Sequence record: NC_134263.1
From: Escherichia phage T5_ev219
Length of the DNA stretch: 64,000 bases
Strand: one strand, 5' to 3'
Every line of letters begins with the position of its first letter. Positions within the stretch are counted from its first letter, which is position 1. This document shows positions 1,254 through 41,645 of the stretch, piece after piece. A program made the position numbers and the translations under genes. The notes beneath the pieces were generated by a model, which ran no database searches, was not told the origin of the DNA, and saw only the letters and a program-made list of their open reading frames with translations.

Positions 1254-1646
1254 TTAAAGACCATAAGCCAACGCATCAGCGATAAAACTAACATCTTCAC
1301 CCGATACACTGGAACGAATCCCCGCACAAGTATATACTTTTGCGCTGATCAATTGATCATCAAGACAAGCGGGGCAAGGCGCGACAACTGCAAAGGCTAG
1401 GCCGGATTTTACGGCGTCGATGATAATCGTTTCTTGTTTCACCGTGTCAACATAAACACCTTTTGCTTTAATATGGCTTGTCAGTTTGCCCTGCATATAT
1501 GCAAACGTTGTAACCTGCAAAGCGTCATTGAAATCTAATAATTCATCAATAACGTGCCCCGCCTCGACGTGGTAACGTTCGCCATTAGAATAAACCAGAA
1601 CAATGGAAGATTGAGCGCGATCGAATGGAATATTTTGCTTTTTCAT
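1254..1646 (-). CDS. hypothetical protein
   Basis: 130-aa ORF in pre-early block, same strand as neighbours. Confidence 0.5.
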   Translation of the reverse strand: MKKQNIPFDRAQSSIVLVYSNGERYHVEAGHVIDELLDFNDALQVTTFAYMQGKLTSHIKAKGVYVDTVKQETIIIDAVKSGLAFAVVAPCPACLDDQLISAKVYTCAGIRSSVSGEDVSFIADALAYGL

Positions 1647-4553: not shown

Positions 4554-4805
4554 TTATAGTACAGCTTCCCATTTTTCGTTGCGTTGAACAACTTTTACAA
4601 CGTCGCCGGATTTAACGCGAACGCTAAAAACGGTTTTGCCGTTGTTACTACGTTCATTTTCAGCGTATACCGCGTCGATTGTATCAAACGGCATAAGCGC
4701 CGCACCTTTAATACGTTCGGCTTTTCCGGTTAGTTCATCCGTTTTAGTAACGAAAGGAATAAAAACGGATTGACCAATTTTAGGCGCGGTAATAACGTTT
4801 TTCAT
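4554..4805 (-). CDS. hypothetical protein
   Basis: 83-aa ORF. Confidence 0.45.
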   Translation of the reverse strand: MKNVITAPKIGQSVFIPFVTKTDELTGKAERIKGAALMPFDTIDAVYAENERSNNGKTVFSVRVKSGDVVKVVQRNEKWEAVL

Positions 4806-5032
4806 AATATAAACTCCTAGTTATTTGGGGATTGTTCCGCATTACCTGCTAGAAAGTAGCAGGTAATAAGCAACAATCCGCTCACCGCTATAATCAATTT
4901 AAAGAACTCCATGCAGGCCGCTATATCCCAGTTAGGGGGCGGGACACATTATGGTAAGTGCCGACCGTCAGATTTTATCAAGTTATCGCTCTTATCGAAC
5001 TGAGTACATCTTAAAGCCTATCGGCTAGGTTG

Positions 5033-29006: not shown

Positions 29007-29201
29007 TTATAGTTTACCACGATATACAGAAACTGTCTTACCAGTTTGGTTCATAACGTATGCTACTTCATCTTCTTTTAAGAAGATTGCTTGATCTATT
29101 CCAGAAATAGCTATGCTTTTATTTCTGGGATTAAACCCTACGCTTTTACCAACATGAATCTGCTCACCACCATCAGTGGACATTATTTTAACTGTTAACA
29201 T
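29007..29201 (-). CDS. hypothetical protein
   Basis: 64-aa ORF. Confidence 0.4.
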   Translation of the reverse strand: MLTVKIMSTDGGEQIHVGKSVGFNPRNKSIAISGIDQAIFLKEDEVAYVMNQTGKTVSVYRGKL

Positions 29202-29238
29202 AATTGCTCCTATATTTAGCTATCTCTAGCTCTGTTAA

Positions 29239-29315
29239 TGGTAGTTAGTAGTGGATTTGAACCACTGTAGTCGCTCCGTATGAAGGAGGTGCATAACCAC
29301 TCTGCCAACTAACTA
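29239..29315 (-). tRNA. tRNA with CAT anticodon (Met, fMet or Ile-lysidine)
   Basis: Manual cloverleaf; loop TTCATAC; CCA encoded. Confidence 0.65.
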
Positions 29316-29409
29316 TTATGTTTTATTAGACTAAGTAAGTATTCTTTATACTCTATAGACCAATTAGCTTTTTTAAACTTTCCTGGACGCATAGTCTTAA
29401 TTCCTAAAT

Positions 29410-29486
29410 TTGGTACTCCGGGAGGGATTTAAACCCCCGATCTCTCGGTTATCAGCCGAGTGCTTTAGATCGCTAAGCTACCGAAG
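29410..29486 (-). tRNA. tRNA-Ile (GAT)
   Basis: Manual cloverleaf; anticodon loop CTGATAA; CCA encoded. Confidence 0.7.
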
Positions 29487-29502
29487 CATTAGAATATTTA
29501 CA

Positions 29503-29793
29503 TCATACACTGTCTAAATAAGAAGTATAATGGAATTTAGCTTCTCCAGTCTTATCTATTTCTACCTCAGTTCGTGGTACTTGACGAACTACACCATGAA
29601 TCATCTTATAGCGAATGCCTTTAGCTGGTTCATGATCTTTTGGAAATACCTGTTTAACCGTTACTACTTTATACTCTTCACGCGGTGTTAACACAACTAC
29701 TTGATCACCTTCTTTGATTTTCCAAGAAGATGGAAATTCATAGGTATATCTTTGACCACCAGTTTGGAATACTACAGAAAGATAACGCTTCAT
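29503..29793 (-). CDS. hypothetical protein
   Basis: 96-aa ORF between tRNA genes. Confidence 0.5.
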   Translation of the reverse strand: MKRYLSVVFQTGGQRYTYEFPSSWKIKEGDQVVVLTPREEYKVVTVKQVFPKDHEPAKGIRYKMIHGVVRQVPRTEVEIDKTGEAKFHYTSYLDSV

Positions 29794-29823
29794 TTGGTTT
29801 CCCTCTCATTAATTTATATAAAT

Positions 29824-29853
29824 ATTATAACAAGAAATAAGAGAGAAGGCAAA
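29824..29853 (-). promoter_or_regulatory. sigma70-type promoter of the conserved family
   Basis: TTGCCT, about 18 bp, TATAAT on minus strand. Confidence 0.5.
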
Positions 29854-29867
29854 TGAATTTTTAAATT

Positions 29868-29942
29868 TGGTGCTCCCACCAGGAATCGAACCCGGTTCAG
29901 ATGCTTACAAGGCAACTGCATCGCCAGCAATGCTTTAGGAGC
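29868..29942 (-). tRNA. tRNA-Thr (TGT)
   Basis: Manual cloverleaf; loop CTTGTAA. Confidence 0.65.
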
Positions 29943-29952
29943 GATAATCCCA

Positions 29953-30117
29953 TTATTTCAACGGGATTTCTTTTTCAATAACAGGAGACTTATCAGTCAT
30001 AACTGTCATTGCCATTTGTTGTAGAAATTCAAAGGTGAAGGCTACACGTTCTTCACCAATCTCTACTTCTACACGTTTCTTTTGTTTATCGATCTTGACT
30101 TTTAGGTTATCAGCCAT
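29953..30117 (-). CDS. small hypothetical protein
   Basis: 54-aa ORF below the track cutoff. Confidence 0.35.
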   Translation of the reverse strand: MADNLKVKIDKQKKRVEVEIGEERVAFTFEFLQQMAMTVMTDKSPVIEKEIPLK

Positions 30118-30361
30118 TAGAGAGTACAGTACTGGTAGTTGGCAATACTACAGATGAAGCAACAGTGTTTAAATGCTTTCTCCAGTCTAGGTTAAATTGT
30201 TTTCGAAACTCTTCATAAGGTTCTTCTGGATAAAAGCTAAAACCTCCTTTCTCGTCATTCAGGATAACAGAGCCGTCAGTTTGTTCGTATGCTCGGTATG
30301 TTTCTCCAATAACAATAATTCGTTTATCGGTACTTTTATTACGAAACTCAAAAACGTGCAT
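30110..30361 (-). CDS. hypothetical protein
   Basis: 83-aa ORF. Confidence 0.45.
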   Translation of the reverse strand: MHVFEFRNKSTDKRIIVIGETYRAYEQTDGSVILNDEKGGFSFYPEEPYEEFRKQFNLDWRKHLNTVASSVVLPTTSTVLSNG

Positions 30362-30377
30362 AATGTTTCCTTAAAGT

Positions 30378-30453
30378 TGGAGCGGCTAGAGGGAATCGAA
30401 CCCTACTCAGCGAGGCTTGGAAGGCCTGCGACACAACCCGTGTGCTTAACCGC
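30378..30453 (-). tRNA. tRNA-Gly (TCC), tentative
   Basis: Manual cloverleaf; good acceptor and T arm; anticodon assignment depends on stem register. Confidence 0.55.
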
Positions 30454-30461
30454 TTATTATT

Positions 30462-30537
30462 TGGCTGGAGAAGGAGGAATCGAACCTACCATTAACGGAG
30501 TCAAAGGCCGTTGTGCTAACCGTTACACTACTCTCCA
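30462..30537 (-). tRNA. tRNA-Gln (TTG)
   Basis: Manual cloverleaf; U1-A72; loop CTTTGAC. Confidence 0.65.
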
Positions 30538-30543
30538 ATAATT

Positions 30544-30619
30544 TGGCTGGGATGCCACGGATCGAACGTGGAACCTTCGGAGTCAGAGGCCGACGATCTG
30601 CCAATTGATCTACATCCCA
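30544..30619 (-). tRNA. tRNA-Gln (CTG)
   Basis: Manual cloverleaf with fully paired arms; loop CTCTGAC. Confidence 0.7.
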
Positions 30620-30632
30620 ATAATTCTTTACT

Positions 30633-30827
30633 CTATGGAAATAGAGTAACTGGCTCAGGTTCTTCAAGGCGCTTACCTTCATGATCTACTCGAATGACTC
30701 CGCATCCTTCGCAAACCACAACTGCACCATAACCTTCTTTGACTTCGGCTTCTGTAATCAGACCAGATAAGTCACCAGTATCTCTGCCCCACATATCAAT
30801 GGAGCATTGTTTGCAGAAATCAGCCAT
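30633..30827 (-). CDS. small Cys-rich protein (zinc-ribbon-like)
   Basis: 64 aa; CKQC...CEGC. Confidence 0.5.
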   Translation of the reverse strand: MADFCKQCSIDMWGRDTGDLSGLITEAEVKEGYGAVVVCEGCGVIRVDHEGKRLEEPEPVTLFP

Positions 30828-30852
30828 AGTTTATTTCCTATTTAAGTTAATT

Positions 30853-30929
30853 TGGGGTGGCTAGTGGAATTCGAATCCACATAGGCCTGATTCACAATCA
30901 GGATCATTAACCAATTATGATATAGCCAC
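30853..30929 (-). tRNA. tRNA-His (GTG)
   Basis: Manual cloverleaf, perfect stems; loop TTGTGAA. Confidence 0.75.
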
Positions 30930-31297
30930 AATTGAAAACTCGCAGGGTTAGCGAAACCATCCTCAATTAGCATGTTCTAGAATACTAATCAAGTTATCTC
31001 CTATTGCACGCAGCTCAAGACGAGTACGAATTTTCAATTGTGGCGGCTCTCAGAAACTCTTCTATTCTAGCCTCAGAAGCTTACCCCCGAACGCATGTCG
31101 GGAAAGTCTTTCCAAGAGCATCAAATAGCACCGTTACACTTTGAGCCATTGATGTATCAAGGAATAGAAGGGCTTGAACCTTCATGAGTTAGACCATTTA
31201 ACTCAACCGCTTTTAAGGTATATTTCTAGGAGTGGATGTTCCTAGTAAACCTATTCGGCAGTCCCGTCTACCAATTCCGGCATATTCCAAGAATTTT

Positions 31298-31471
31298 TTA
31301 TAAACCGGCAGAAGCCTCATTTAAAGCATCAACAATAGCTTCACGCTGGGTCATTCCATACCCGGTGGAGTCTAGGTGAGGCAAATAGGCTGCCCATCCA
31401 TTATCTGTTTCATGAAGGTATGCTTTAAATTTTTTACCATCCTTCATTGTTACAGTAACTGTTTTGCTCAT
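31298..31471 (-). CDS. small protein, HicB-antitoxin-like fold candidate
   Basis: 57-aa ORF with AGGAAT RBS; resemblance weak. Confidence 0.35.
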   Translation of the reverse strand: MSKTVTVTMKDGKKFKAYLHETDNGWAAYLPHLDSTGYGMTQREAIVDALNEASAGL

Positions 31472-31491
31472 AAGGATTCCTTATAGTTAAT

Positions 31492-31581
31492 TGGAGGAAG
31501 GTAATGGAGTCGAACCATCACCGTATCACTACAGCGGGCTAGTTTTCAAGACTAGTTGCGTACCACTACGCCCTACCTTCC
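31492..31581 (-). tRNA. tRNA-Ser (TGA), class II
   Basis: 90 nt; perfect acceptor; loop CTTGAAA; long variable arm. Confidence 0.75.
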
Positions 31582-31588
31582 ATTTGTT

Positions 31589-31679
31589 TGGCGGAAGAGG
31601 AGAGATTTGAACTCTCAAGCCGTTTTACCAGTCAGCCACTTTCCAAGCGGTTTTCGTCGCCAATTCGATTTGCTCTTCC
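31589..31679 (-). tRNA. class II tRNA, probably Ser (GGA)
   Basis: 91 nt; perfect acceptor and T arm; anticodon stem partly paired. Confidence 0.55.
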
Positions 31680-31791
31680 AATAATAAGATGATGCCTCTA
31701 TCATACCAGGCAGTTACGCCTCGCTGGGATTCGAACCCATTAAAACAGCTCAACCGAGATAGTAGGTTTAATTTACTCTGACCATCAAATT

Positions 31792-31868
31792 TGGTGCGTG
31801 ACAAGGGATTCGAACCCTCAAAACCCGACTTCTAAGGACGGTATGTATGCCAATTCCATCAATCACGC
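31792..31868 (-). tRNA. tRNA with TAG anticodon (Leu codon CUA) but short variable loop
   Basis: 77 nt; good acceptor, D, anticodon and T arms; 5-nt variable region. Confidence 0.55.
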
Positions 31869-31873
31869 GTATT

Positions 31874-31952
31874 TGGTGGAGGATAACGAATTCGAATCGT
31901 TCTGATGTCCTCGGTGCAAGCGAGGTGTCCACTCCCAGCAGACCCATCCCCC
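31874..31952 (-). tRNA. tRNA-Ala (TGC)
   Basis: Perfect anticodon stem; loop CTTGCAC. Confidence 0.7.
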
Positions 31953-32238
31953 AAATTCTTTAGTTTACTAAGGCTATTAGCTCGGCGTAACTACAGCACC
32001 TTCGCTTCGAGCGGAAGGAACTGCGTCATCTCGCAAACCCAATACACTATTCAGTTGCCGCTGAATCTAGTGGACTAATCTAGAACTTCTCCCAAATCGT
32101 AGGAATCGTGCTTTTTGGCAGCCAGTCCTAGGTCGAGCTAATACCTTAGTGAACTATGATGAGGATTTCTCCCCATCAATTTATATAAATATTATAACAA
32201 GAAATTAAGCATTAAGCAACTGCGTTTTTTCTTGAAAT

Positions 32239-32317
32239 TGGTAGATCGCCTGGGACTCGAACCCAGAACCTTCCGATTAAAAGTCGGATGCTACTAAACC
32301 TATTGAGCTAGCGACCT
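32239..32317 (-). tRNA. tRNA-Lys (TTT)
   Basis: Perfect anticodon stem; loop CTTTTAA. Confidence 0.7.
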
Positions 32318-32318
32318 A

Positions 32319-32486
32319 TTAGTAACCATTATATACTTCTTTAATAGAGTGGACTTTTAAATAGGGATGATTAGTATTAAACTCTACCATTACTTCATCC
32401 CAATTTTTACCATAATGGGCAAGTAAGGATTTTGATGTATTCTTACCTAAACGTTTGTCACTTACTACTAATCGAAATACTTTCAT
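32319..32486 (-). CDS. small hypothetical protein
   Basis: 55-aa ORF with GAGGAT RBS. Confidence 0.4.
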   Translation of the reverse strand: MKVFRLVVSDKRLGKNTSKSLLAHYGKNWDEVMVEFNTNHPYLKVHSIKEVYNGY

Positions 32487-32506
32487 TTCGAAATCCTCTA
32501 TTAAAA

Positions 32507-32584
32507 TGGAAGCGGGTGCAGGAATCGAACCTACCTCTTTCTAGCTTATGAGACTAGTGATCTCTACCAGAGATCTAACCCGCA
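32507..32584 (-). tRNA. tRNA with CAT anticodon, unpaired 1:72 (initiator-like)
   Basis: Loop CTCATAA; D stem GATC/GATC; U1-U72 mismatch. Confidence 0.6.
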
Positions 32585-32590
32585 ATTGTT

Positions 32591-32669
32591 TGGTCTCCGT
32601 GGGAGGATTTGAACCCCCGACCCTATCGCCCCAAACGAAACGCTCTGACCAAACTGAGCTACACGGAGA
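32591..32669 (-). tRNA. tRNA-Pro (TGG)
   Basis: Perfect acceptor; loop TTTGGGG. Confidence 0.65.
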
Positions 32670-32672
32670 ATA

Positions 32673-32831
32673 TTATTTCTTCAACCACAACAAAGATAAG
32701 CCCAGCATACTAAAGCCGCTAACTAATCCGATACCTTTTTCTTCTATAGTAAAAGTATCTAGATTAAATGCTGTTATAGCTATTGGCATACACCATAATG
32801 CCATAAAAACTTGAGCTATCTTGTGTTTCAT
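32673..32831 (-). CDS. small hydrophobic protein
   Basis: 52-aa ORF with GGAAGG RBS behind a family promoter. Confidence 0.4.
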   Translation of the reverse strand: MKHKIAQVFMALWCMPIAITAFNLDTFTIEEKGIGLVSGFSMLGLSLLWLKK

Positions 32832-33042
32832 TTTGCTTTCCTTCCCTTCACTTTATAAGATATATTATACAGAGAATTAAGCAGAATAGCAAATGAATTT
32901 TTAATAAATTTACTTATTGTGTAGGCCACCTGGAGGCTATGAACCCCACGGCTGACAAAGAAGTTTGCGAGACCTCTCTTAAATGCCAGAATAGACCCGC
33001 CGATCTATCGGAACCTACATAATAAGTAAACTTTATAGTGTC

Positions 33043-33162
33043 ATTCTAGACAGGATTCGAACCTGTTATCACTTGTGCGGACTTACGAGAACCATTCTTT
33101 CACTCGAATCGAACGAGCTTCTGCCCTCGCCAAGTTGGTTTCCCCATCAACCACGCTAGAAT
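33043..33162 (-). other. 120-nt tRNA-like structured element (two T-arm-like hairpins inside a 7-bp closing stem)
   Basis: CTAGAAT/ATTCTAG pair at the ends; internal GGTTCGAATCC-like and TTCGATT hairpins. Confidence 0.3.
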
Positions 33163-33284
33163 GTTTGATTGTTTTCAGTGCAAGAGTCCGAGTCTTGGAC
33201 ACGACCGCTTCGCAAGTACATAGGCAGCTTATCATGAGTCAGCACTTCCGAATTGCTAGCTCCGTGTTCTGCACTGAAATTTTA

Positions 33285-33641
33285 TTAGTTTAACCGTAAA
33301 GTATTATCTACTTCACCATTAATTGTTCGGCATTCCTCTGGGATTGCCGGGGTGGCCTTGTATTCCCACCACTCAGCACCATCATATTCCCCACGTTCTA
33401 GCCAAGTTCCATCGGCAAACCATACATTACCATAAAGTAATTGTCCACCGTATCCAGAATCATATTCAAAGTCTAGGTTATTAAGAAAATCCTCAATATC
33501 TTCTTCTGCATAACCTAAAGGTAATACCCAAACTTTTTTATCCCCATAATACCCGAATTCTATTTTAATACACTTAACTTCAGAATTAGTATTTTTTAAG
33601 GCAAGTAACAGCTCTTCTTTAGCATTACGCATATTACGCAT
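33285..33641 (-). CDS. hypothetical protein
   Basis: Track ORF 33285..33728 trimmed to Met30 because the N-terminal extension runs into tRNA-Asp. Confidence 0.5.
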   Translation of the reverse strand: MRNMRNAKEELLLALKNTNSEVKCIKIEFGYYGDKKVWVLPLGYAEEDIEDFLNNLDFEYDSGYGGQLLYGNVWFADGTWLERGEYDGAEWWEYKATPAIPEECRTINGEVDNTLRLN

Positions 33642-33666
33642 AATATATTCCCATACTGGATTAATT

Positions 33667-33743
33667 TGGCGCGACCGATGGGATTTGAACCCACATTCTC
33701 TCCCGTGACAGGGGAGTACCATTACCAAGCCAGCCCCGGTCGC
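33667..33743 (-). tRNA. tRNA-Asp (GTC)
   Basis: Perfect acceptor; loop CTGTCAC. Confidence 0.75.
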
Positions 33744-33752
33744 ATAATTTAT

Positions 33753-33938
33753 TTACTCAGCTTTGAGTTTTTCAATAGCTGCATTAAGTTCTTTAAGAAA
33801 CTCTTTTCGTACATTAAGACGATTGAGACTTACTAGTATATCATGTTTAAGTTCTTCGATGTATTTCTTTTCAACTTCAATATTGTTGATAGTGCTATCA
33901 CGATGAACTTCTAACTGTGCAATTACATTCTTGGACAT
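33753..33938 (-). CDS. hypothetical coiled-coil protein
   Basis: 61-aa ORF. Confidence 0.4.
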   Translation of the reverse strand: MSKNVIAQLEVHRDSTINNIEVEKKYIEELKHDILVSLNRLNVRKEFLKELNAAIEKLKAE

Positions 33939-34040
33939 GCTTGTTTCCTCAGTTATTAATGAAAATGGTATCTGTGGCTGAATTCGATGTCAGCAATGAT
34001 AGCTGGTTGGCTACCGGTTTACTTAACTCTACACAGAATT

Positions 34041-34118
34041 TGGCGGTTCCTGCTGGATTCGAACCAGCAACCCTCAACTTAACAAGATGCCGCTCTAACC
34101 AATTAGAGCTAAGGAACC
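34041..34118 (-). tRNA. tRNA-Asn (GTT), tentative
   Basis: Perfect acceptor, D and T arms; weak anticodon stem; loop TTGTTAA. Confidence 0.55.
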
Positions 34119-34613
34119 ATATAAGTCAGAACTAGAGTTAATACGTTCTAGATATTTACTAAGATCCCTAGAATTTATACTAAACCACTCATGTTCTTTT
34201 AAATCTTTGAAATACTGGTGAATTAGTTTTTCACCTTTTCGTTTGTCAAACCAAAAAGACCAATGCTCTAACTTATAATCCCTATAAGGGGAATAAGTCT
34301 GATATTGAGCTAATCTCTCTTTTGGATTTTGACTCATACCTATTTTATACTGATTTTTCCATGCAGGATTACTAATACAGTATACAAAACCTTCAGAAAT
34401 AGGAAGTTTATTTTCCTGCTTAAACTTTATAAAGGAAAGTGCAGCAAGTTTTCTCGAATACATAGTATTTGTATTCTTTTTGGTATTACCATTGGTTCCT
34501 GAAAGATTTATATATTCTTCCATAAATCTCTGGATTAGTTCTGCGGTTATATAGAAGGGCTCATTAGTAACAACGCCTTTCTTTACCAAACTATCAAAAA
34601 CTTTTGTATGCAC
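34095..34613 (-). CDS. GIY-YIG-like domain protein
   Basis: 172 aa; GFVYCISNP...YKIGMSQNP..R pattern; last 7 codons and stop overlap the 5' end of tRNA-Asn. Confidence 0.55.
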   Translation of the reverse strand: MHTKVFDSLVKKGVVTNEPFYITAELIQRFMEEYINLSGTNGNTKKNTNTMYSRKLAALSFIKFKQENKLPISEGFVYCISNPAWKNQYKIGMSQNPKERLAQYQTYSPYRDYKLEHWSFWFDKRKGEKLIHQYFKDLKEHEWFSINSRDLSKYLERINSSSDLYGSLALIG

Positions 34614-34633
34614 TACTTCTTTCCTTTAGTAAT

Positions 34634-34709
34634 TTGGACGACCGCATGAGATTTGAACTCACATAAAAAGGATTTGCAATCCTTCGCCTAAGCCATTCAG
34701 CCAACGGTC
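34634..34709 (-). tRNA. tRNA-Cys (GCA)
   Basis: Loop TGCAAAT. Confidence 0.65.
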
Positions 34710-34897
34710 GATTTATCTTGTTTTTCGAGATCTTCAAATTCTAAATCATTGAAGTTCCCTAGAGTACGGGAGTAGAACCCGTCTCCTGCGTCATAGCCTG
34801 ATTTGCCACAATCACACATTTTAAATTCACGAAGATGTGTGAAAATATGCTCAGAACCACAACACTTAAATCTAACTAATCGTTTCATTAGTTTCAT
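34697..34897 (-). CDS. small zinc-ribbon-like protein
   Basis: 66 aa; CCGSEH...CDCG; 3' end overlaps tRNA-Cys 5' end. Confidence 0.45.
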   Translation of the reverse strand: MKLMKRLVRFKCCGSEHIFTHLREFKMCDCGKSGYDAGDGFYSRTLGNFNDLEFEDLEKQDKSTVG

Positions 34898-34946
34898 TAG
34901 CTTCTCCAGTTCAATTTATATAATTATTATATAGAACTTTTGGAAA

Positions 34947-35231
34947 CTAAGCAACTACATTTTTTAAGAATTTGATGTCTTTCTTCTTCTTATATTTCCA
35001 CGTTAATGGATTCTGTCGATTGTGAACGCTTGAGATCTTCGTCTCGTCAAAGTTCTTCAATATCATGTAATCACAAGATAATTGTTCTAATGGAATGTGA
35101 TCACCGTCAAAAGCATATACATAAGGCTGTTGACTAGCACGATAATGATAGACTTTGTTAATTCTACGTTTCAGCGACTTATCAGCGCAGTAAATAAAGA
35201 AGTTTTCAGGATGCATCAGCATCTCCTTCAA
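34947..35231 (-). CDS. hypothetical protein
   Basis: 94-aa ORF. Confidence 0.45.
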   Translation of the reverse strand: MKEMLMHPENFFIYCADKSLKRRINKVYHYRASQQPYVYAFDGDHIPLEQLSCDYMILKNFDETKISSVHNRQNPLTWKYKKKKDIKFLKNVVA

Positions 35232-35233
35232 TT

Positions 35234-35308
35234 TGGTGCACCCTGTTCGTATCGAACGAACCTCTCAAGCTCTTCAGGCAAGCGCTAATCCATCTCAGCT
35301 AAAGGTGC
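35234..35308 (-). tRNA. tRNA-Phe (GAA), tentative
   Basis: Good acceptor and T arm; loop CTGAAGA; partial anticodon stem. Confidence 0.55.
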
Positions 35309-35315
35309 AAATTTT

Positions 35316-35391
35316 GGCAAACCTACTAGGACTCGAACCTAGACCGTACGGTTTTGGAGACCGACATGCTGTCCAGTAACACTCTAGGAAT
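35316..35391 (-). tRNA. tRNA-like, Trp (CCA) anticodon arm but unpaired acceptor stem (possible pseudogene)
   Basis: Good D, anticodon and T arms and 3' CCA; 5' and 3' acceptor strands not complementary. Confidence 0.35.
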
Positions 35392-35399
35392 GCAGAAAT

Positions 35400-35476
35400 T
35401 GGCGTCCTGTGCGGGGATCGAACCCGCAAATCCTACCTTGAAAGGGTAGTGACTTTACCAGTTTGTCTAACAGGAC
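35400..35476 (-). tRNA. tRNA-Glu (TTC)
   Basis: Perfect acceptor and anticodon stems; loop CTTTCAA. Confidence 0.7.
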
Positions 35477-35483
35477 TTAAATT

Positions 35484-35574
35484 TGGTGTTGGATGATGGA
35501 GTCGAACCACCCGAGACCCTTCCGAGTCGGCAGATTTACAGTCTGCTTCGCTACCTCTACGATACTAATCCAAC
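35484..35574 (-). tRNA. tRNA-Tyr (GTA), class II
   Basis: 91 nt; perfect acceptor; anticodon stem GCAGA/TCTGC; loop CTGTAAA. Confidence 0.7.
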
Positions 35575-35702
35575 ATATTTAAAAGTATTCAAATACTAGT
35601 TTAAACACTTTTAAATATGTTTCCGAATTAGATAACTATTATACCAAGTTTTAAGGCACTGAGCAAGTCAAATTTTAAAGAACTTGCTCAGTGCTGTATT
35701 AG

Positions 35703-35978
35703 TTAGTCGAACTTAGGAGTGACAGTTAAGGAGAACGGAAGTTCGAAAACTTCTTCGCCCTCATTACTAACGGTAACTACACGACCTTTAAGTTCAGACA
35801 TTAAAATATCAATATCAGCTTTTGCATCTGGAGCCATGCCAGCTTCAATACATTTAGCTTTAACTTCCGGTAAAAGCTCTACGTTATAGAGATAGAGCCA
35901 CTCAATCTCACCTTCCCAGTCTTCCCAGGATTTGCAGATTGCACTTTCAATACCAGTTGCTACAACACGATTTTGCAT
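35703..35978 (-). CDS. hypothetical protein
   Basis: 91-aa ORF behind a family promoter. Confidence 0.5.
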   Translation of the reverse strand: MQNRVVATGIESAICKSWEDWEGEIEWLYLYNVELLPEVKAKCIEAGMAPDAKADIDILMSELKGRVVTVSNEGEEVFELPFSLTVTPKFD

Positions 35979-36068
35979 TAATTAACTCCTTCATCAATTT
36001 ATATAACTATTATACCAGAAATTTAAAGTAAAAGGCAAGTACATTTTTAAAAATTCTGTTTGGAGGAG

Positions 36069-36275
36069 CTAAACTCCAGATTTTTCGGCCAAGTCTAGAC
36101 TAATAAGAGTTATAGCCATAATTGCTGCACCGTGTTCTTTTTCTCCGGTGTTTTTAGCAGAGTCTATAATATCCTTAATCTGTTCGTAATAACTTTTTAC
36201 TTCTTGTTCAATGCCTGCCTCGGCTATCATGCCTTTAGCCATGAATCGTTGCATGGTAATTTCAGGATTAGCCAT
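36069..36275 (-). CDS. hypothetical protein
   Basis: 68-aa ORF. Confidence 0.45.
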   Translation of the reverse strand: MANPEITMQRFMAKGMIAEAGIEQEVKSYYEQIKDIIDSAKNTGEKEHGAAIMAITLISLDLAEKSGV

Positions 36276-36450
36276 GTTGTTTCTCCAGTTTCATTTTTAA
36301 TAGTTTACAGATGAAATCAACGTCTTCATCTGTGCCTAAGTCTCTATCCTCAAGGGTCGCCTTGAAGTTTTTCGTCAATTCCATGAGGATGATTTCCCTA
36401 GAACGACGTGTTGGCGGAGGTGGATGTCTATACATCTTATTTCCTTAATT

Positions 36451-36527
36451 TGGTAGGGGTGGTGGGATTCGAACCCACAAAACCTGAATTTTAAGTCCAG
36501 TACCTATGCCAATTCGATTACACCCCC
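36451..36527 (-). tRNA. tRNA with TAA anticodon (Leu codon UUA) but short variable loop
   Basis: 77 nt; good acceptor, anticodon and T arms; D-loop AATTGGCATA shared with 31792..31868. Confidence 0.55.
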
Positions 36528-36628
36528 GTGTAATCAGTTTATTAGTTGATACATATTATAGCCTAAAGAAAACCCTACTACTAATCCTACTAACCAACCA
36601 ATATAATAATCTTTTAATTTCACGGGTG

Positions 36629-36814
36629 TCAACCTCGTTCAATATCTAGAGAAATACCACAGGTAGGATTAATGCCTGTGCCTTTGCACGTCGGACAAAC
36701 CCAGATATTACAGAATGTATCCCCTGCTTCTGCATCAGAACTTTCTCCAACTCCTAGACAGTCAGGACAGGCACATTCTTCTAGCTCTTGCTTGAGTTCT
36801 TGAAACTTAGACAT
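36629..36814 (-). CDS. small zinc-ribbon protein
   Basis: 61 aa; CACPDC...CPTCKG. Confidence 0.5.
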   Translation of the reverse strand: MSKFQELKQELEECACPDCLGVGESSDAEAGDTFCNIWVCPTCKGTGINPTCGISLDIERG

Positions 36815-36823
36815 ATAGTTTCC

Positions 36824-37012
36824 TTATTCAATTACTTTTGAGGCTTCAAGGGAGTCGATATAGTGTACGTTTTCTACCATAATCATATAATCTGCCACTT
36901 TATCCATAGCCTGAGCTTCAGAGGTAGCCCTGGCTAACCTATATCCTTTTTTATATTCATCCGGGTATTCCCTATCTGGAATAAACACAACATAAACTAG
37001 GTATAGTTCCAC
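36824..37012 (-). CDS. hypothetical protein
   Basis: 62-aa ORF. Confidence 0.4.
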   Translation of the reverse strand: MELYLVYVVFIPDREYPDEYKKGYRLARATSEAQAMDKVADYMIMVENVHYIDSLEASKVIE

Positions 37013-37033
37013 TTGTAACCCCTCTAATTAAAC

Positions 37034-37111
37034 TGGTGGCTCCCCGAGGATTCGAACCTACGTACCTTCCGGTTATGAGCCGGGTGCTCATACCATATGA
37101 GCTTGAGAACC
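37034..37111 (-). tRNA. tRNA with CAT anticodon, E. coli fMet-like anticodon arm
   Basis: Anticodon arm CCGG-CTCATAA-CCGG; D stem GCTC/GAGC; weak T stem. Confidence 0.5.
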
Positions 37112-37117
37112 AGAATT

Positions 37118-37206
37118 TGGCGGAAGAAGTGGGAATCGAACCCACAAGGCTATATTTCAAACCGACAGATTAGCAATCTGCTGCAATACCGTTATGCTAT
37201 TCTTCC
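37118..37206 (-). tRNA. tRNA-Ser (GCT), class II
   Basis: 89 nt; perfect acceptor; loop TTGCTAA. Confidence 0.65.
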
Positions 37207-37310
37207 GAATTTATAAGATATATTATATTAGAAATTTAGCTTCATAGCAAGAAAATTTTTCAAGTTTTCGGTAGACATCTCATCCACATCTACAGGAGAA
37301 ACAAATCCAT

Positions 37311-37745
37311 TTAATTGTCTAGCAAATTTTCACCAGCAGGATCATTATCCCCAACAGCTACCAATTTAAAAGGTAATAATTTCAGTTGCTTTAATAACGC
37401 TTTTCCTGGAGAAGAACCCAACATTGCTAGGGCTGGATAACCAGCGTTATGTAACGCAACTGCCTTAAATACAGATTCAGCGATCAATACTACTTTTTCA
37501 TCTCCATTGAGAGTTTCTAGTCCCCATACACACTGGGTAGTAGAATAAGTAAAATATTTAGCTTCAAAGGGACACTTACCATGACCTTTTGGAGCAGAAG
37601 GATTATAAGTTTGATAGCCCCTCAACATCCCAGAGAAGTCATACAACGGGACTGTTAGCCATCCTTCCGGACTTAACCAGCAATGATATTTTTCTGTATC
37701 AAATCCTCTAGATAAGAGGTGCTGTGTTAGCTCATCAACATTCAT
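37311..37745 (-). CDS. Toprim-domain protein (primase-like C-terminal fragment)
   Basis: Track ORF trimmed to Met18 because Met1 lies inside the promoter; LIAESV...ALHNAG...AMLGSS...VGDNDPAG resembles DnaG Toprim motifs. Confidence 0.45.
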   Translation of the reverse strand: MNVDELTQHLLSRGFDTEKYHCWLSPEGWLTVPLYDFSGMLRGYQTYNPSAPKGHGKCPFEAKYFTYSTTQCVWGLETLNGDEKVVLIAESVFKAVALHNAGYPALAMLGSSPGKALLKQLKLLPFKLVAVGDNDPAGENLLDN

Positions 37746-37920
37746 ATCTGGTTCCTCTCTCAAATTTATAGATATATTATACAGAGAATTTAGCATTCAA
37801 GCAATCAAATTTTTTAACTTTTTAGAGGAAAATCATAGGGCACTTAAGGGCAGCAGATAAGTGGTGAGGACCAAAATTTGTGACCCCACTAAAAATCCGG
37901 GGGCAATTTTTAAAGACCCT

Positions 37921-37949
37921 TTGACATTTTCGCCGGGGTAGTGTAAAGT
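37921..37949 (+). promoter_or_regulatory. sigma70-like promoter for the plus-strand cassette
   Basis: TTGACA, 17-bp spacer, TAAAGT. Confidence 0.45.
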
Positions 37950-38011
37950 ATATGTTATGGATGAGTGATCAAAGAGACACACATTTTCTATATACTAGGA
38001 GGTGTCAAAAA

Positions 38012-38992
38012 ATGACAGAAGAAGTAGCTAAGAGTCCTGAGACCGTCGCTAGCGTAGCAGCAGAACTGCATCGTCACGAGGAATCAGATAAGAAAAAGTG
38101 GGAGAAGGTCAGAGCCTACGAAGAAGAACATCGTGAACACGATGATAAAGATGAAGAAGATGACGATGATGTACGTTGTCATAAATATGGAAAATATAAA
38201 ATGCAAGAACCAGTAAACGTATTTACTAACGGCTTCCCTGGCATGGGTGCATTCCCAGCTAACGCAAGTGCTTTCGGTGGAGAAGGTATGGGTCTATTCG
38301 GAGCTATCCTAATCGGTGCTCTATTAACCGGCGGATTTGGTGGTTTTGGTGGTTTTGGTCGTGGTGCTGGCGTTGCCGCTGAAGGAACCGCTGTGGACGC
38401 GATCCTTTCTAACCAGGATACTGCAAGTATTCTAGCTGCAATCAATACTACTCGTACAGAAGCTAACCAGGGCACTGGGGCTGTTCTAAGTGCAGTAAAC
38501 GGTGTGGGAGCTGCTCAAGCTGCTAGCACTCAGCAAGTTCTGACTACTATCTACGGTACAGGTGCTAATCTGTCAAACCAGATCTGTGCTGAAACTCGTA
38601 ACGTTATTCAGGGTCAGTTCGATCTTTCTCGTCAGATGGATCAATCTTTCGCTGCTAACCAGATAGCACGTGCTCAAGATAAGTTTGACTCTGCTCAGAT
38701 TGCTTTCCAGCAGTCTATTCAGACCAACAACCAGTTTGCCGCTGTTCAGGCTCAGATGTGCGCTAACCAGAACGCTATCGAACGTCAGCTTGCTGAATGT
38801 TGCTGTGAGCTTCAGACTGCGATCGCTGGTGTAACTACTGCACGTATCCAGGACGAACTGAATGAATGCCGTCTGCGCGAAGCAATCGCTGCAGGTAGCG
38901 GTGCAAATGGTCAGGTAATCAACCAAATCGCTGTAAGTCTTGGTGCTATCACTCAGACTCTGGCTGGTCTGCAGGCTAAACTGCCGGCTTAA
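38012..38992 (+). CDS. Gly/Ala/Gln/Asn-rich low-complexity protein with central hydrophobic Gly-rich segment
   Basis: Track ORF trimmed to MTEEVAK with AGGAGG RBS; acidic N-terminus, GMGLFGAILIGALLTGGFGGFGGFG segment, Q/A/N-rich C-terminus with ECCCEL. Confidence 0.6.
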   Translation: MTEEVAKSPETVASVAAELHRHEESDKKKWEKVRAYEEEHREHDDKDEEDDDDVRCHKYGKYKMQEPVNVFTNGFPGMGAFPANASAFGGEGMGLFGAILIGALLTGGFGGFGGFGRGAGVAAEGTAVDAILSNQDTASILAAINTTRTEANQGTGAVLSAVNGVGAAQAASTQQVLTTIYGTGANLSNQICAETRNVIQGQFDLSRQMDQSFAANQIARAQDKFDSAQIAFQQSIQTNNQFAAVQAQMCANQNAIERQLAECCCELQTAIAGVTTARIQDELNECRLREAIAAGSGANGQVINQIAVSLGAITQTLAGLQAKLPA

Positions 38993-40811: not shown

Positions 40812-41313
40812 TTTAAGTATTTTTAAGAACTCTCGTAAAAACTCTTAAAAATACAGACGATACCGGGAGAGTCATAAGTCTCACTCATTAAGTATTTCAA
40901 GACAAAATACAGTAACGTCTATTATTTTCCAGTTTAAGTCAGGGTGACTTAGTGGTTATGTCCTGCGGTATATTGAGGACTCGGTTAGGCTTGGGGTCAT
41001 GACTTCCCGCCTTTTGCTGCTACTCAACAGGAGTTATCGCGAATTACCTGTGCTATTGTGCACCATTAGTGACATCTCTCATGTCAGCATTTCCCACTTT
41101 GTGGATAGCTTGAAAAACTACTCCGATATGGAGAAAGAACTTCACTATCCTAGAATACCTTCTAAAGTTCTTCTTTAGCCTGGACATAGTTAAATCGTAA
41201 TAAAACTATTCAGCAGACTGGTTGGTTAGTCTGGAACCAACTACCGCGTGGTTTAGGCAGTGCGCAACTAACCTCGGAAGCTTTTACGTTAAAAGCATCA
41301 GTTATCCAGTTCT

Positions 41314-41385
41314 TACCGACCGTAGGATTCGAACCTACATCTTCCACCAGTTACGGCTTGGTAATACCAATTATACTAGGACGGC
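41314..41385 (-). tRNA. tRNA-like element (no encoded CCA; possible pseudogene)
   Basis: T arm GTAGG-TTCGAAT-CCTAC; acceptor with one mismatch; non-canonical anticodon loop. Confidence 0.3.
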
Positions 41386-41645
41386 AGTGTTACTACATAA
41401 GTGATTTCCACACCCCACTATTTATAAATTAGAGAAGAGTTTAGGGGAGAGGTTTCAGACGCCCCATTTTACACGTTCTAGCCACTAACCGGGATTGCCG
41501 CCCCCTGTGTACTAGTTTTCCAACTAACCCACCGACTCTATTCAATGCGCTCCGGTTGGGATTCTGCACTCAGCGTAATCGGCTCGCTGTTCTCTAATTT
41601 ATGAATATATTATACAGAATTTATAGGCATTTAGCAAATAAATTT

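What the first reader, a model, noticed from the sequence alone, without database searches (positions are those of the whole stretch)
30930..33290. Unassigned structured non-coding islands within the tRNA cluster
Three stretches (30930-31290, 31953-32230, 32900-33290) contain no tRNA that folds canonically and no convincing ORF, yet each lies downstream of a family promoter and contains stable hairpins or partial tRNA-like arms. These are candidates for tRNA-like small RNAs or processing leaders.
Basis: seen in the sequence. Interest (0 to 1): 0.5.

Follow-up and report, generated by a model that had tools for sequence, protein, structure and literature searches.

The report
Known T5 stable small RNA genes
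The three "empty" stretches in this phage's tRNA cluster are the genes for six small stable RNAs already annotated in phages T5 and BF23 (two of them tRNA look-alikes that cannot decode), so the finding is a rediscovery, although what these RNAs do remains unknown.

Summary
The window is a T5-like phage (Tequintavirus) with its tRNA cluster on the minus strand. The three islands match, at 94-100% identity and in the same order, six misc_RNA genes annotated in T5 (AY543070) and BF23 (NC_042564) as "stable RNA with unknown functions". They are RNAIII, RNAI and RNA1 (island 1), RNA2H (island 2), and RNAIV and RNA2 (island 3). A seventh conserved 121-nt element (33164-33284) is annotated in neither record.

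No canonical tRNA, Rfam family or credible ORF lies in the islands. Comparative analysis supports real structured RNAs. RNA1 is 99.7% paired with 11 compensatory pairs, and RNA2 has 25 of 31 pairs compensatory.

RNA1 is a tRNA-Leu-derived cloverleaf with a 40-nt hairpin inserted in the anticodon loop; the hairpin's apical loop is invariant and the "anticodon" is not conserved. RNA2 is a tRNA-like scaffold carrying a second T-loop hairpin. Its family extends to Acinetobacter T4-like phages and to uncultured phage contigs, always inside tRNA clusters.

Only island 2 lies directly downstream of a promoter. Viable T5 deletion mutants lack all six RNAs. The most likely mechanism is co-transcription with the tRNAs, excision by the tRNA-processing machinery, and action as non-decoding accessory RNAs, possibly tRNA mimics.

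Novelty: already known. Function: still open.

The parts
30931..31036 (-). RNAIII gene (106 nt). A 12-bp terminal stem encloses three hairpins. Its 3' end abuts the 5' end of tRNA-His.
   Evidence: 100% identical to T5 rnaIII. Annotated 'stable RNA with unknown functions' in AY543070 and NC_042564. Fold z = -2.85. Mean identity 99.4% across 14 Tequintavirus loci, which leaves too little variation to test covariation.
31041..31147 (-). RNAI gene (107 nt). A GGCUC/GAGCC terminal helix is followed by a conserved 3' GCCRCCA, i.e. an encoded CCA end.
   Evidence: 98.1% identical to T5 rnaI. The CCA end is conserved in 16 of 17 distinct sequences. Fold z = -1.54.
31148..31291 (-). RNA1 gene (144 nt). 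A tRNA-Leu-derived cloverleaf (body 31159-31289) carries a 40-nt hairpin inserted in the anticodon loop; the hairpin's apical loop ACAUCCAC is invariant.
   Evidence: 94.4% identical to T5 rna1, annotated 'tRNA-like stable RNA'. 99.7% of cells paired and 11 compensatory pairs, against 1-2 in slid controls. The R2 model scores it 166 bits; the next-best hits are tRNA-Leu genes at 28-30 bits.
31972..32143 (-). RNA2H gene (172 nt). A 10-bp terminal stem encloses four hairpins. It lies between promoter P13b and tRNA-Ala.
   Evidence: 98.3% identical to T5 rna2H. 99.4% paired, with 9 compensatory pairs, mainly in the 3' hairpin. Invariant G-U pairs fit the minus strand only.
32165..32229 (-). Early promoter P13b (TTGCTT-17-TATAAT), which drives RNA2H, tRNA-Ala, tRNA-Leu and the genes downstream.
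   Evidence: 98.5% identical to the promoter P13b annotated in T5. It falls below the threshold of the simple consensus scan.
32837..32911 (-). Early promoter P13a (TTGCTA-17-TATAAT). It overlaps the low end of island 3 and fires away from it, towards the 52-aa ORF, tRNA-Pro and tRNA-fMet.
   Evidence: 92% identical to T5 P13a. It matches the consensus at 10 of 12 positions at 32892-32864.
32918..33020 (-). RNAIV gene (103 nt). A closed three-hairpin RNA.
   Evidence: 96.1% identical to T5 rnaIV. Fold z = -2.70. 98.4% paired with 6 compensatory pairs.
33039..33163 (-). RNA2 gene (125 nt). A tRNA-like scaffold (acceptor, D and T arms) whose anticodon arm is replaced by a module holding a second T-loop hairpin (GCUCG-UUCGAUU-CGAGU) and the conserved stretch AAUGG..CNCGUAANUCC.
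   Evidence: 98.4% identical to T5 rna2, annotated 'tRNA-like stable RNA'. 17 of the 34 predicted pairs are compensatory on a MAFFT alignment. On the model-fitted alignment 25 of 31 pairs are compensatory and 95.2% of cells are paired. The R1 model also finds it in Acinetobacter T4-like phages and in metagenomic phage contigs.
33164..33284 (-). Conserved 121-nt element between the stop codon of the T5.067 homologue and RNA2, not annotated in T5 or BF23. An 11-bp closing stem makes it a candidate seventh small RNA or a structured 3' UTR.
   Evidence: 99.2% identical to T5 33084-33204. Mean identity 99.1% in 14 of 14 Tequintavirus loci but present in only 1 of 9 Epseptimavirus loci. Fold z = -1.79. 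No variation is available to test pairing.

Best explanation
The three islands are the genes of the T5/BF23-type small stable RNAs: RNAIII, RNAI, RNA1, RNA2H, RNAIV and RNA2. A seventh conserved element is not annotated in those records.

They are read on the minus strand by host sigma-70 RNA polymerase from T5 early promoters, as parts of long precursors that also carry tRNAs and small ORFs. P13b serves RNA2H and, further downstream, RNA1, RNAI and RNAIII. A promoter upstream of tRNA-Asp serves RNA2 and RNAIV.

Each RNA pairs its own 5' and 3' ends into a long terminal helix, and RNA1, RNA2 and RNAI have tRNA-like ends. The host tRNA-processing enzymes (RNase P at 5' ends, then 3' trimming) therefore cut them out as discrete, nuclease-resistant molecules. 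Because the genes abut, one cut makes two ends: RNA1|RNAI, RNAI-4 nt-RNAIII, RNAIII|tRNA-His.

RNA1 and RNA2 descend from tRNAs but cannot decode, because the anticodon loop is replaced by a conserved structured insert. They are kept by selection as trans-acting accessory RNAs that are dispensable in laboratory hosts.

My best guess for function (about 0.3) is tRNA mimicry: they engage tRNA-binding host factors such as tRNA-targeting defence nucleases or tRNA-processing and modifying enzymes. The identity of the islands and the conservation of structure are shown here. Transcription and processing are inferred from the T5 annotation and the anatomy. The function is a hypothesis.
For: Identity: BLAST of every T5 feature onto the window gives 94-100% full-length matches in the same order. 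AY543070 and NC_042564 annotate these as stable RNAs, with RNA1 and RNA2 called tRNA-like.

Selection on structure: RNA1 is 99.7% paired with 11 compensatory pairs against 1-2 in slid controls. RNA2 has 25 of 31 pairs compensatory against 6-9, and 17 of 34 on an unfitted MAFFT alignment. RNA2H has 9 compensatory pairs and RNAIV has 6.

Sequence constraint: within Tequintavirus the RNAs are 94-99% identical (RNA1 88%), against 91-94% for the flanking ORFs. The RNA1 apical loop is invariant even in a Klebsiella Sugarlandvirus.

Not decoding: a 40-nt insert (RNA1) and a 48-nt insert (RNA2) sit in the anticodon loop. The RNA1 'anticodon' UAA is not conserved among relatives.

tRNA-like ends and adjacency. 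The sequence CAAU, giving U at -1, precedes the 5' ends of RNAI, RNAIII and tRNA-His.

Always in tRNA clusters on the tRNA strand: RNA2-family members abut tRNAs in T5-like phages, T4-like phages and metagenomic contigs.

Dispensable: the viable T5 deletions 29191-32442 and 30661-38625 together remove all six genes (PMC11464382).
Against: No expression or end-mapping data exist for this phage; stability is taken from database annotation of T5 and BF23. RNAIII, RNAI and the 33164-33284 element vary too little for covariation to test their folds. RNAIII, RNAI and that element are also absent from most Epseptimavirus loci, so they may be lineage-specific passengers.

RNase P processing is inferred, not shown. 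Nothing computed here identifies a binding partner, so the tRNA-mimic function rests on shape and conservation alone. Viable deletion mutants show no requirement under laboratory conditions.
Confidence: 0.8

Rival explanations
1. The islands are decaying tRNA pseudogenes and spacer DNA, the debris of a rapidly rearranging tRNA cluster. They have no function of their own and are stable only because leftover tRNA arms protect them.
For: The cluster does contain degenerate tRNA-like remnants, such as 31589-31679 and a T-arm remnant in 31680-31791. RNA1 and RNA2 clearly derive from tRNAs. RNAIII, RNAI and the 33164-33284 element are missing from many Epseptimavirus genomes. All of these elements are dispensable in the laboratory.
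Against: Compensatory changes preserve the helices, including the helices of the inserts that no tRNA has. The insert loops are invariant across genera. The RNAs are more conserved than neighbouring protein genes. The RNA2 family is retained across two phage families. Pseudogenes would accumulate stem-breaking changes and indels.
Confidence: 0.07
2. The elements act in cis as processing punctuation and stabilisers. Their compact folds direct RNase P, RNase E or RNase III cuts that separate tRNAs from the small ORF mRNAs, and they shield the upstream mRNAs (the T5.063 and T5.067 homologues) from 3' exonucleases. The released RNAs are by-products.
For: Islands 1 and 3 begin immediately after small ORFs, and island 2 is a promoter-proximal leader. 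Terminal stems of 10-12 bp and long perfect hairpins would block exonucleases. Precise gene-to-gene abutment fits a punctuation role.
Against: A cis role needs stable helices, not invariant loop sequences. The ACAUCCAC loop of RNA1 and the RNA2 core AAUGG..CNCGUAANUCC are conserved across genera and families while the stems vary. RNA2-family members in other phages directly follow tRNAs rather than ORFs. Three RNAs in tandem are more than punctuation would need.
Confidence: 0.12
3. RNA1 and RNA2 are intron-containing tRNA genes (tRNA-Leu(UAA), tRNA-Arg(CCG)) whose inserts are spliced out to give working tRNAs.
For: ARAGORN with introns allowed makes exactly these calls. One GenBank record annotates the RNA1 homologue as a 134-nt tRNA-Leu(taa).
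Against: The would-be anticodon loop is not conserved: CUUAAAA in the T5 group, CUCAUAAA and CCGAAAAC in others. The insert itself shows covariation and an invariant loop. From general knowledge, bacteria have no splicing system for 40-48-nt non-group-I tRNA introns. T5 and BF23 annotate the full-length 144-nt and 125-nt species as the stable RNAs. The RNA2 call appears only at a lowered ARAGORN threshold.
Confidence: 0.02
4. The islands encode small proteins, either missed or annotated only as 'hypothetical protein' in some genomes.
For: Several GenBank records place hypothetical-protein CDSs over these stretches. ORFs of 43-72 aa exist on both strands.
Against: None of the island ORFs hits Pfam or PHROGs, apart from a PHROG built on an ORF lying over tRNA-His. 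Substitutions are compensatory in helices and indels are not multiples of three. The ORFs overlap tRNA-like structures and are not preserved among relatives.
Confidence: 0.01

Closest known systems
Bacteriophage T5 and BF23 stable RNAs RNAIII, RNAI, RNA1, RNA2H, RNAIV and RNA2 (misc_RNA features of GenBank AY543070 and RefSeq NC_042564)
   Same: The same genes: 94-100% identity over the full length, and the same order and neighbours. The order runs tRNA-His | RNAIII | RNAI | RNA1 | ORF; tRNA-Ala | RNA2H | P13b; P13a | RNAIV | RNA2 | ORF.
   Different: There are a few point differences, and RNA1 is the most diverged at 94%. The window lacks T5's hegC and tRNA-Val near these genes, and, unlike BF23, has no tRNA-Gly between RNAIV and RNA2. 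The 33164-33284 element is conserved but annotated in neither record.
Bacteriophage T4 species 1 and species 2 RNAs (rnaC, rnaD)
   Same: They are small stable RNAs of 139 and 119 nt encoded at the end of a phage tRNA cluster on the tRNA strand. rnaC has a tRNA-type T arm and paired ends. Their biological role is unknown after decades (PMC3014915 and PMC9697503).
   Different: No detectable homology. BLAST shares only the T-loop words, and the RNA2 model scores rnaC at 18 bits, which is within the range of ordinary tRNAs. The RNA1 model has no T4 hit. T4 RNAC and RNAD are classed as late RNAs, whereas the T5 region is under early promoters.
Canonical tRNA (Rfam RF00005)
   Same: RNA1 and RNA2 keep acceptor, D and T arms that covary like tRNA arms. 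The D arm and long variable arm of RNA1 are of the tRNA-Leu type. Ordinary tRNAs match the RNA2 and RNA1 models at up to 30 bits.
   Different: They score below the Rfam gathering threshold (21.6 against 29 bits, or no hit at all). The anticodon loop is replaced by a 40-48-nt structured insert with no conserved anticodon. RNA1 and RNA2 in this window encode no CCA.
Bacterial tRNA mimics such as the tmRNA tRNA-like domain and YrlA (Y RNA-like) RNAs
   Same: The concept is the same: a tRNA-shaped elbow (T loop plus a GG-containing loop) grafted onto a non-decoding RNA. From general knowledge, YrlA-type RNAs also occur in phages.
   Different: ARAGORN finds no tmRNA and the permissive Rfam scan finds no Y-RNA or other family. 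The termini are at the acceptor end, as in a tRNA. No Ro/Rsr-binding stem was identified. The resemblance comes from memory and is not a tested membership.

Membership tests
T5/BF23 stable RNA genes (rnaIII, rnaI, rna1, rna2H, rnaIV, rna2) | Full-length sequence identity to the annotated genes | tested here: met
   100, 98.1, 94.4, 98.3, 96.1 and 98.4% identity over the full length.
T5/BF23 stable RNA genes (rnaIII, rnaI, rna1, rna2H, rnaIV, rna2) | Same position and orientation relative to tRNA-His, tRNA-Ala, promoters P13b and P13a, and the T5.063 and T5.067 ORFs | tested here: met
   Feature-by-feature mapping against the T5 and BF23 annotation tables.
T5/BF23 stable RNA genes (rnaIII, rnaI, rna1, rna2H, rnaIV, rna2) | Accumulation as discrete stable transcripts in infected cells | not testable with these tools
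   Known only from the wording of the database records. No open-access paper describing them was found.
tRNA (Rfam RF00005 / ARAGORN) | Score at or above the curated threshold with a standard cloverleaf | tested here: not met
   The best island match is 21.6 bits at 31159-31227 against a gathering score of 29, and the other RNAs give no hit. ARAGORN at default settings finds none.
tRNA (Rfam RF00005 / ARAGORN) | Acceptor, D and T arms maintained by compensatory change | tested here: met
   Met for RNA1 and RNA2 only. RNAIII, RNAI, RNAIV and RNA2H have no tRNA-type arms.
tRNA (Rfam RF00005 / ARAGORN) | Seven-nucleotide anticodon loop with a conserved anticodon | tested here: not met
   Inserts of 40 nt and 48 nt occupy the loop. 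The residual loop sequence of RNA1 differs between lineages.
tRNA (Rfam RF00005 / ARAGORN) | 3' CCA end and aminoacylation | tested here: inconclusive
   RNAI encodes a conserved GCCRCCA end. RNA2 ends in ACA here but in CCA in some relatives. RNA1 has U at the discriminator position and no CCA. Charging cannot be tested with these tools.
T4 species 1 / species 2 RNAs (rnaC, rnaD) | Sequence or structure homology to rnaC or rnaD | tested here: not met
   BLAST shares only T-loop words. The R1 model scores rnaC at 18.4 bits, no better than tRNAs. The R2 model has no T4 hit.
T4 species 1 / species 2 RNAs (rnaC, rnaD) | Small non-tRNA RNA gene inside a phage tRNA cluster on the tRNA strand | tested here: met
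tmRNA | tRNA-Ala-like domain plus a tag-peptide reading frame | tested here: not met
   ARAGORN reports no tmRNA in the window, and Rfam finds none.
Intron-containing tRNA | A functional anticodon loop is restored once the insert is removed, and it is conserved among relatives | tested here: not met
   Removing the insert leaves CUUAAAA in the T5 group only; other lineages have CUCAUAAA or CCGAAAAC. The insert itself is under structural selection.
Y RNA-like / YrlA tRNA mimics (Rfam) | Match to the curated covariance models | tested here: not met
   No such match up to E = 10 in 30600-33700.

The most novel reading that the evidence does not exclude
RNA1 and RNA2 are dedicated phage tRNA mimics. 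They are tRNA scaffolds whose anticodon loop was swapped for a conserved recognition module. They would act in trans as decoys or adaptors for tRNA-binding host proteins, for example by soaking up tRNA-targeting defence nucleases or by redirecting tRNA-processing enzymes. On this reading, RNA2, with its second T-loop 'elbow', defines a structured-RNA family absent from Rfam and shared by T5-like (Demerecviridae) and T4-like (Straboviridae) phages. The cross-family RNA family itself is well supported here; the anti-defence or decoy function is the speculative part.
Probability: 0.2. Interest if true: 0.75.

Novelty: already known. Interest (0 to 1): 0.3.

Why it matters
As a discovery it does not matter much. 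These RNA genes are in the T5 and BF23 database records, and automated annotation of hundreds of T5-like genomes simply omits them or mislabels them as hypothetical proteins or as an oversized tRNA-Leu.

It matters as a reminder of an old open question: what the non-tRNA stable RNAs of phage tRNA clusters do (T5 RNAI, RNAIII, RNA1 and RNA2; T4 species 1 and 2).

The comparative results give concrete handles on that question:
- Helices in RNA1, RNA2, RNA2H and RNAIV are maintained by compensatory change.
- RNA1 has an invariant 8-nt apical loop, ACAUCCAC.
- The RNA2 core, with its second T loop, is conserved from T5-like to Acinetobacter T4-like phages.
- Existing viable deletion mutants lack these genes.

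Phage tRNAs have recently been shown to neutralise tRNA-cleaving defences such as PARIS. Testing whether these tRNA look-alikes do something similar is now straightforward.

Tried and rejected
- **Rfam.** Gathering thresholds over the whole window, and E up to 10 over 30600-33700, gave only tRNAs and chance matches.
- **Protein coding.** Six island ORFs were scanned against PHROGs and Pfam. The only hit was phrog_28521, a family built on a spurious ORF that overlaps tRNA-His.
- **Homology to T4 rnaC/rnaD.** Rejected.
- **Spliced tRNA-Leu or tRNA-Arg.** Rejected because the anticodon is not conserved and the insert covaries.
- **Paralogy among the seven elements, or extra copies elsewhere in the window.** None found.
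- **Pattern scan for the RNA2 core in bacterial genomes.** Three hits. Two (L131, L132) fail the covariance model and are chance; the third is a 167-kb phage-like contig.
- **Metagenome scan.** Only three contigs, all confirmed by the model and all lying in tRNA clusters.
- **IMG/VR.** It yielded few T5-like contigs, so the diversity came mainly from GenBank phage records.
- **Literature.** Seven full-text searches found no open-access paper describing the T5 stable RNAs or their function. My recollection that they were characterised in the early 1980s is memory, not a citation.
- **Base-pairing partner for the invariant RNA1 loop.** By eye, within RNA2, only a 5-bp match turned up, and it is not conserved. 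Dropped.
- **Covariation for RNAIII, RNAI and 33164-33284.** Uninformative because these sequences are nearly invariant.


Full report
**Context.** The window carries a large tRNA cluster on the minus strand. ARAGORN finds 23 tRNAs and Rfam finds 23 tRNA matches. Megablast of 30930-33290 hits 572 phage records, almost all T5-like Escherichia, Salmonella and Klebsiella phages, with up to 97% identity over the full length. The window is therefore a Tequintavirus-type member of the Demerecviridae.

**What the islands are.**
- rnaIII, rnaI and rna1 lie between tRNA-His and ORF T5.063.
- rna2H lies between tRNA-Ala and promoter P13b.
- rnaIV and rna2 lie between promoter P13a and ORF T5.067.

The record labels them 'stable RNA with unknown functions'; rna1 and rna2 are labelled 'tRNA-like stable RNA with unknown functions'. 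The BF23 tRNA-region RefSeq record has the same set.

BLAST of each T5 feature onto the window gives these positions:

| Feature | Window coordinates | Identity to T5 |
|---|---|---|
| RNAIII | 30931-31036 | 100% |
| RNAI | 31041-31147 | 98.1% |
| RNA1 | 31148-31291 | 94.4% |
| RNA2H | 31972-32143 | 98.3% |
| promoter P13b | 32165-32229 | 98.5% |
| promoter P13a | 32837-32911 | 92% |
| RNAIV | 32918-33020 | 96.1% |
| RNA2 | 33039-33163 | 98.4% |

A further 121 nt (33164-33284) are 99% identical to a T5 stretch that carries no annotation in T5 or BF23. The finding is therefore a rediscovery of known genes.

**Checking the observation.** No canonical tRNA is called in the islands. The permissive Rfam scan adds only a sub-threshold tRNA match inside RNA1, at 21.6 bits against a gathering score of 29. 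ORFs are short and hit no family, apart from a PHROG built on an ORF that lies over tRNA-His.

Every RNA folds with its two ends paired in a long terminal helix. Minus-strand z-scores against dinucleotide shuffles are -1.5 to -3.0, and the plus strand folds worse except for RNA2H. For RNA2H, invariant G-U pairs identify the minus strand as the RNA strand.

The promoter claim holds only for island 2:
- P13a lies at the downstream edge of island 3 and fires away from it.
- Island 1 follows ORF T5.063 and tRNA-Ser with no promoter of its own.

**Comparative evidence.** I collected loci from Tequintavirus, Epseptimavirus, Sugarlandvirus (KpGranit) and Serratia phage Slocum and extracted the distinct homologues.

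- **RNA1** (28 distinct sequences). It has an acceptor stem, a tRNA-Leu-type D arm, an 'anticodon' stem, a long variable arm and a T arm. A hairpin is inserted into the anticodon loop. 99.7% of cells are paired, and 11 pairs show changes on both sides against 1-2 for slid controls. These include pairs in the inserted hairpin. The apical loop ACAUCCAC is invariant even in the Klebsiella phage. The residual anticodon-loop sequence changes between lineages.
- **How tRNA finders read RNA1 and RNA2.** ARAGORN with introns allowed reads RNA1 as tRNA-Leu(taa) with a 40-nt intron. At a relaxed threshold it reads RNA2 as tRNA-Arg(ccg) with a 48-nt intron. One GenBank record annotates the RNA1 homologue as a 134-nt tRNA-Leu.
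- **RNA1 covariance model.** It finds the RNA only in T5-like phages (140-175 bits). tRNA-Leu genes are the next-best hits at 28-30 bits.
- **RNA2.** Acceptor, D, 'anticodon' and T stems all covary on a MAFFT alignment, with 17 of the 34 predicted pairs compensatory. The insert contains a second T-arm-like hairpin: GCUCG-UUCGAUU-CGAGU, which covaries to UACGG-UUCGAUU-CCGUA. It also contains the conserved stretch AAUGG..CNCGUAANUCC.
- **RNA2 covariance model.**

| Hit group | Score (bits) |
|---|---|
| T5-like copies | 88-159 |
| Acinetobacter T4-like phage Acj9 | 75 |
| A second T4-like contig | 66 |
| A 167-kb phage-like contig | 62 |
| Three metagenomic contigs | 66-88 |
| Ordinary tRNAs | 30 or less |
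| T4 rnaC | 18 |

. On the model-fitted alignment of 19 sequences, 95.2% of cells pair and 25 of 31 pairs are compensatory, against 6-9 in slid controls. The fitting biases this upward, but the unfitted alignment agrees. All members lie in tRNA clusters on the tRNA strand, usually touching a tRNA.
- **RNA2H.** 99.4% paired with 9 compensatory pairs, mostly one swapped hairpin plus a helix that accepts an extra hairpin in some Epseptimaviruses.
- **RNAIV.** 98.4% paired with 6 compensatory pairs.
- **RNAI.** It keeps a 3' GCCRCCA after a GGCUC/GAGCC helix but varies little.
- **RNAIII and 33164-33284.** Both are essentially invariant, so their folds cannot be tested this way.

**Conservation and distribution.** Mean identity to the window across 14 Tequintavirus loci:

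| Element | Mean identity |
|---|---|
| RNAIII | 99.4% |
| 33164-33284 | 99.1% |
| RNA2 | 97.7% |
| RNA2H | 97.1% |
| RNAIV | 96.8% |
| RNAI | 94.1% |
| RNA1 | 88.4% |
| Flanking ORFs | 91-94% |

All seven elements are present in 13-14 of the 14 loci. Across nine Epseptimavirus loci:
- RNA1 and RNA2 are in all nine.
- RNA2H is also in all nine, but only one match is full-length because its hairpins vary.
- RNAIV is in eight.
- RNAIII and RNAI are in three.
- The unannotated element is in one.

RNA1 and RNA2 are therefore the core, family-wide elements, and the others are more lineage-specific. The seven elements show no similarity to one another.

**How they most likely work.** What is shown:
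- The islands are these genes.
- Their structures are conserved.
- RNA1 and RNA2 are tRNA-derived.
- RNA1 has lost a conserved anticodon, and in both RNAs a structured insert replaces the 7-nt anticodon loop.

What is inferred from the annotation and the anatomy:
- Transcription runs from T5 early promoters within polycistronic tRNA/ORF precursors.
- The tRNA-processing machinery excises the RNAs.

The genes abut so that one RNase P-type cut creates two ends: RNA1|RNAI, RNAI-4 nt-RNAIII, and RNAIII|tRNA-His. The sequence CAAU precedes the 5' ends of RNAI, RNAIII and tRNA-His. The terminal helices would then protect the products.

Function remains a hypothesis. Viable T5 mutants with deletions 29191-32442 and 30661-38625 together lack all six genes (PMC11464382). 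The RNAs are therefore accessory under laboratory conditions, like many host-range or counter-defence functions. Given tRNA-shaped bodies, lost decoding capacity and invariant loops, I favour trans-acting tRNA mimicry at about 0.3. A cis role in precursor processing and mRNA protection comes next, and pure relics are unlikely.

**Comparison with what is known.** Beyond the T5 and BF23 genes themselves, the closest analogues are T4 species 1 and 2 RNAs (rnaC, rnaD). They share the genomic setting and a partly tRNA-like shape, and their roles are still unknown. I found no sequence or model-level homology to them. The islands fail membership tests for tRNA, tmRNA and any Rfam family.

**Verdict.** Three things are new in this analysis:
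- the covariation support for the structures;
- the recognition that RNA2 belongs to a two-T-loop tRNA-like family, absent from Rfam, that is shared with T4-like phages;
- a conserved unannotated seventh element.

These are leads rather than discoveries.

Noticed in passing
window 33164-33284 (-): A 121-nt element between the T5.067-homologue stop codon and RNA2. It is 98-100% conserved in all Tequintavirus loci examined and closed by an 11-bp stem, but annotated in neither T5 nor BF23. It is present in only 1 of 9 Epseptimavirus loci, where tRNA-Lys(CUU) sits upstream of RNA2. It may be a seventh stable RNA or a structured 3' UTR.
   Followed up: partly
window 31589-31679 (-): A tRNA-Ser(GGA)-like gene that ARAGORN misses at default settings and finds only at a relaxed threshold. 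Rfam matches it only as tRNA-Sec at 19.7 bits. It occupies the position of tRNAS2 in BF23 and is only about 79% identical to T5 tRNA-Ser2 over part of its length. T5's hegC homing-endonuclease gene, which follows it in T5, is absent from the window.
   Followed up: partly
window 31680-31791 (-): A 112-nt spacer between the Ser2-like gene and tRNA-Leu(tag). It contains a T-arm-like UGGGUUCGAAUCCCA and is 98.6% conserved in 12 of 14 Tequintavirus loci. It looks like another tRNA-derived remnant or a small RNA.
   Followed up: no
window 31874-31952 (-): tRNA-Ala(tgc), with a G3:U70 pair, is called by ARAGORN but gets no Rfam tRNA match even at E up to 10. It has an unusually long D region.
   Followed up: no
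window 33966-34038 and 40812-41441 (-): Two more T5/BF23-annotated RNAs lie outside the finding. RNA3 ('tRNA-like', 100% identical to T5) sits next to tRNA-Asn. RNAX is a stable RNA of about 720 nt in T5; it matches the window in two overlapping segments, 91-99% identical, next to tRNA-Arg.
   Followed up: no
window 30842-30973 (-): A 43-aa ORF lying entirely over tRNA-His and the 3' end of RNAIII matches phrog_28521 (E = 1e-36). That PHROG family therefore appears to be built from spurious ORF calls over a tRNA gene.
   Followed up: partly
L109 (Acinetobacter phage Acj9 NC_014663) 1490-1605 (-): An RNA2-family member (75 bits) lies directly downstream of tRNA-Gly in a T4-like phage. The annotated hypothetical-protein CDS Acj9p148 overlaps it, which is probably a mis-annotation.
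   Followed up: partly
L083 (Escherichia phage JLBYU40 NC_105514) 4726-4859: The RNA1 homologue is annotated in GenBank as a 134-nt 'tRNA-Leu(taa)'. Many other T5-like records place hypothetical-protein CDSs over these RNA genes or leave them blank.
   Followed up: yes
window 32144-32190 (-): The predicted leader between the P13b -10 box and the annotated 5' end of RNA2H contains an 8-bp hairpin with a GAAA tetraloop (GAUGGGGA-GAAA-UCCUCAUC). RNA2H is therefore probably processed from a longer primary transcript.
   Followed up: no
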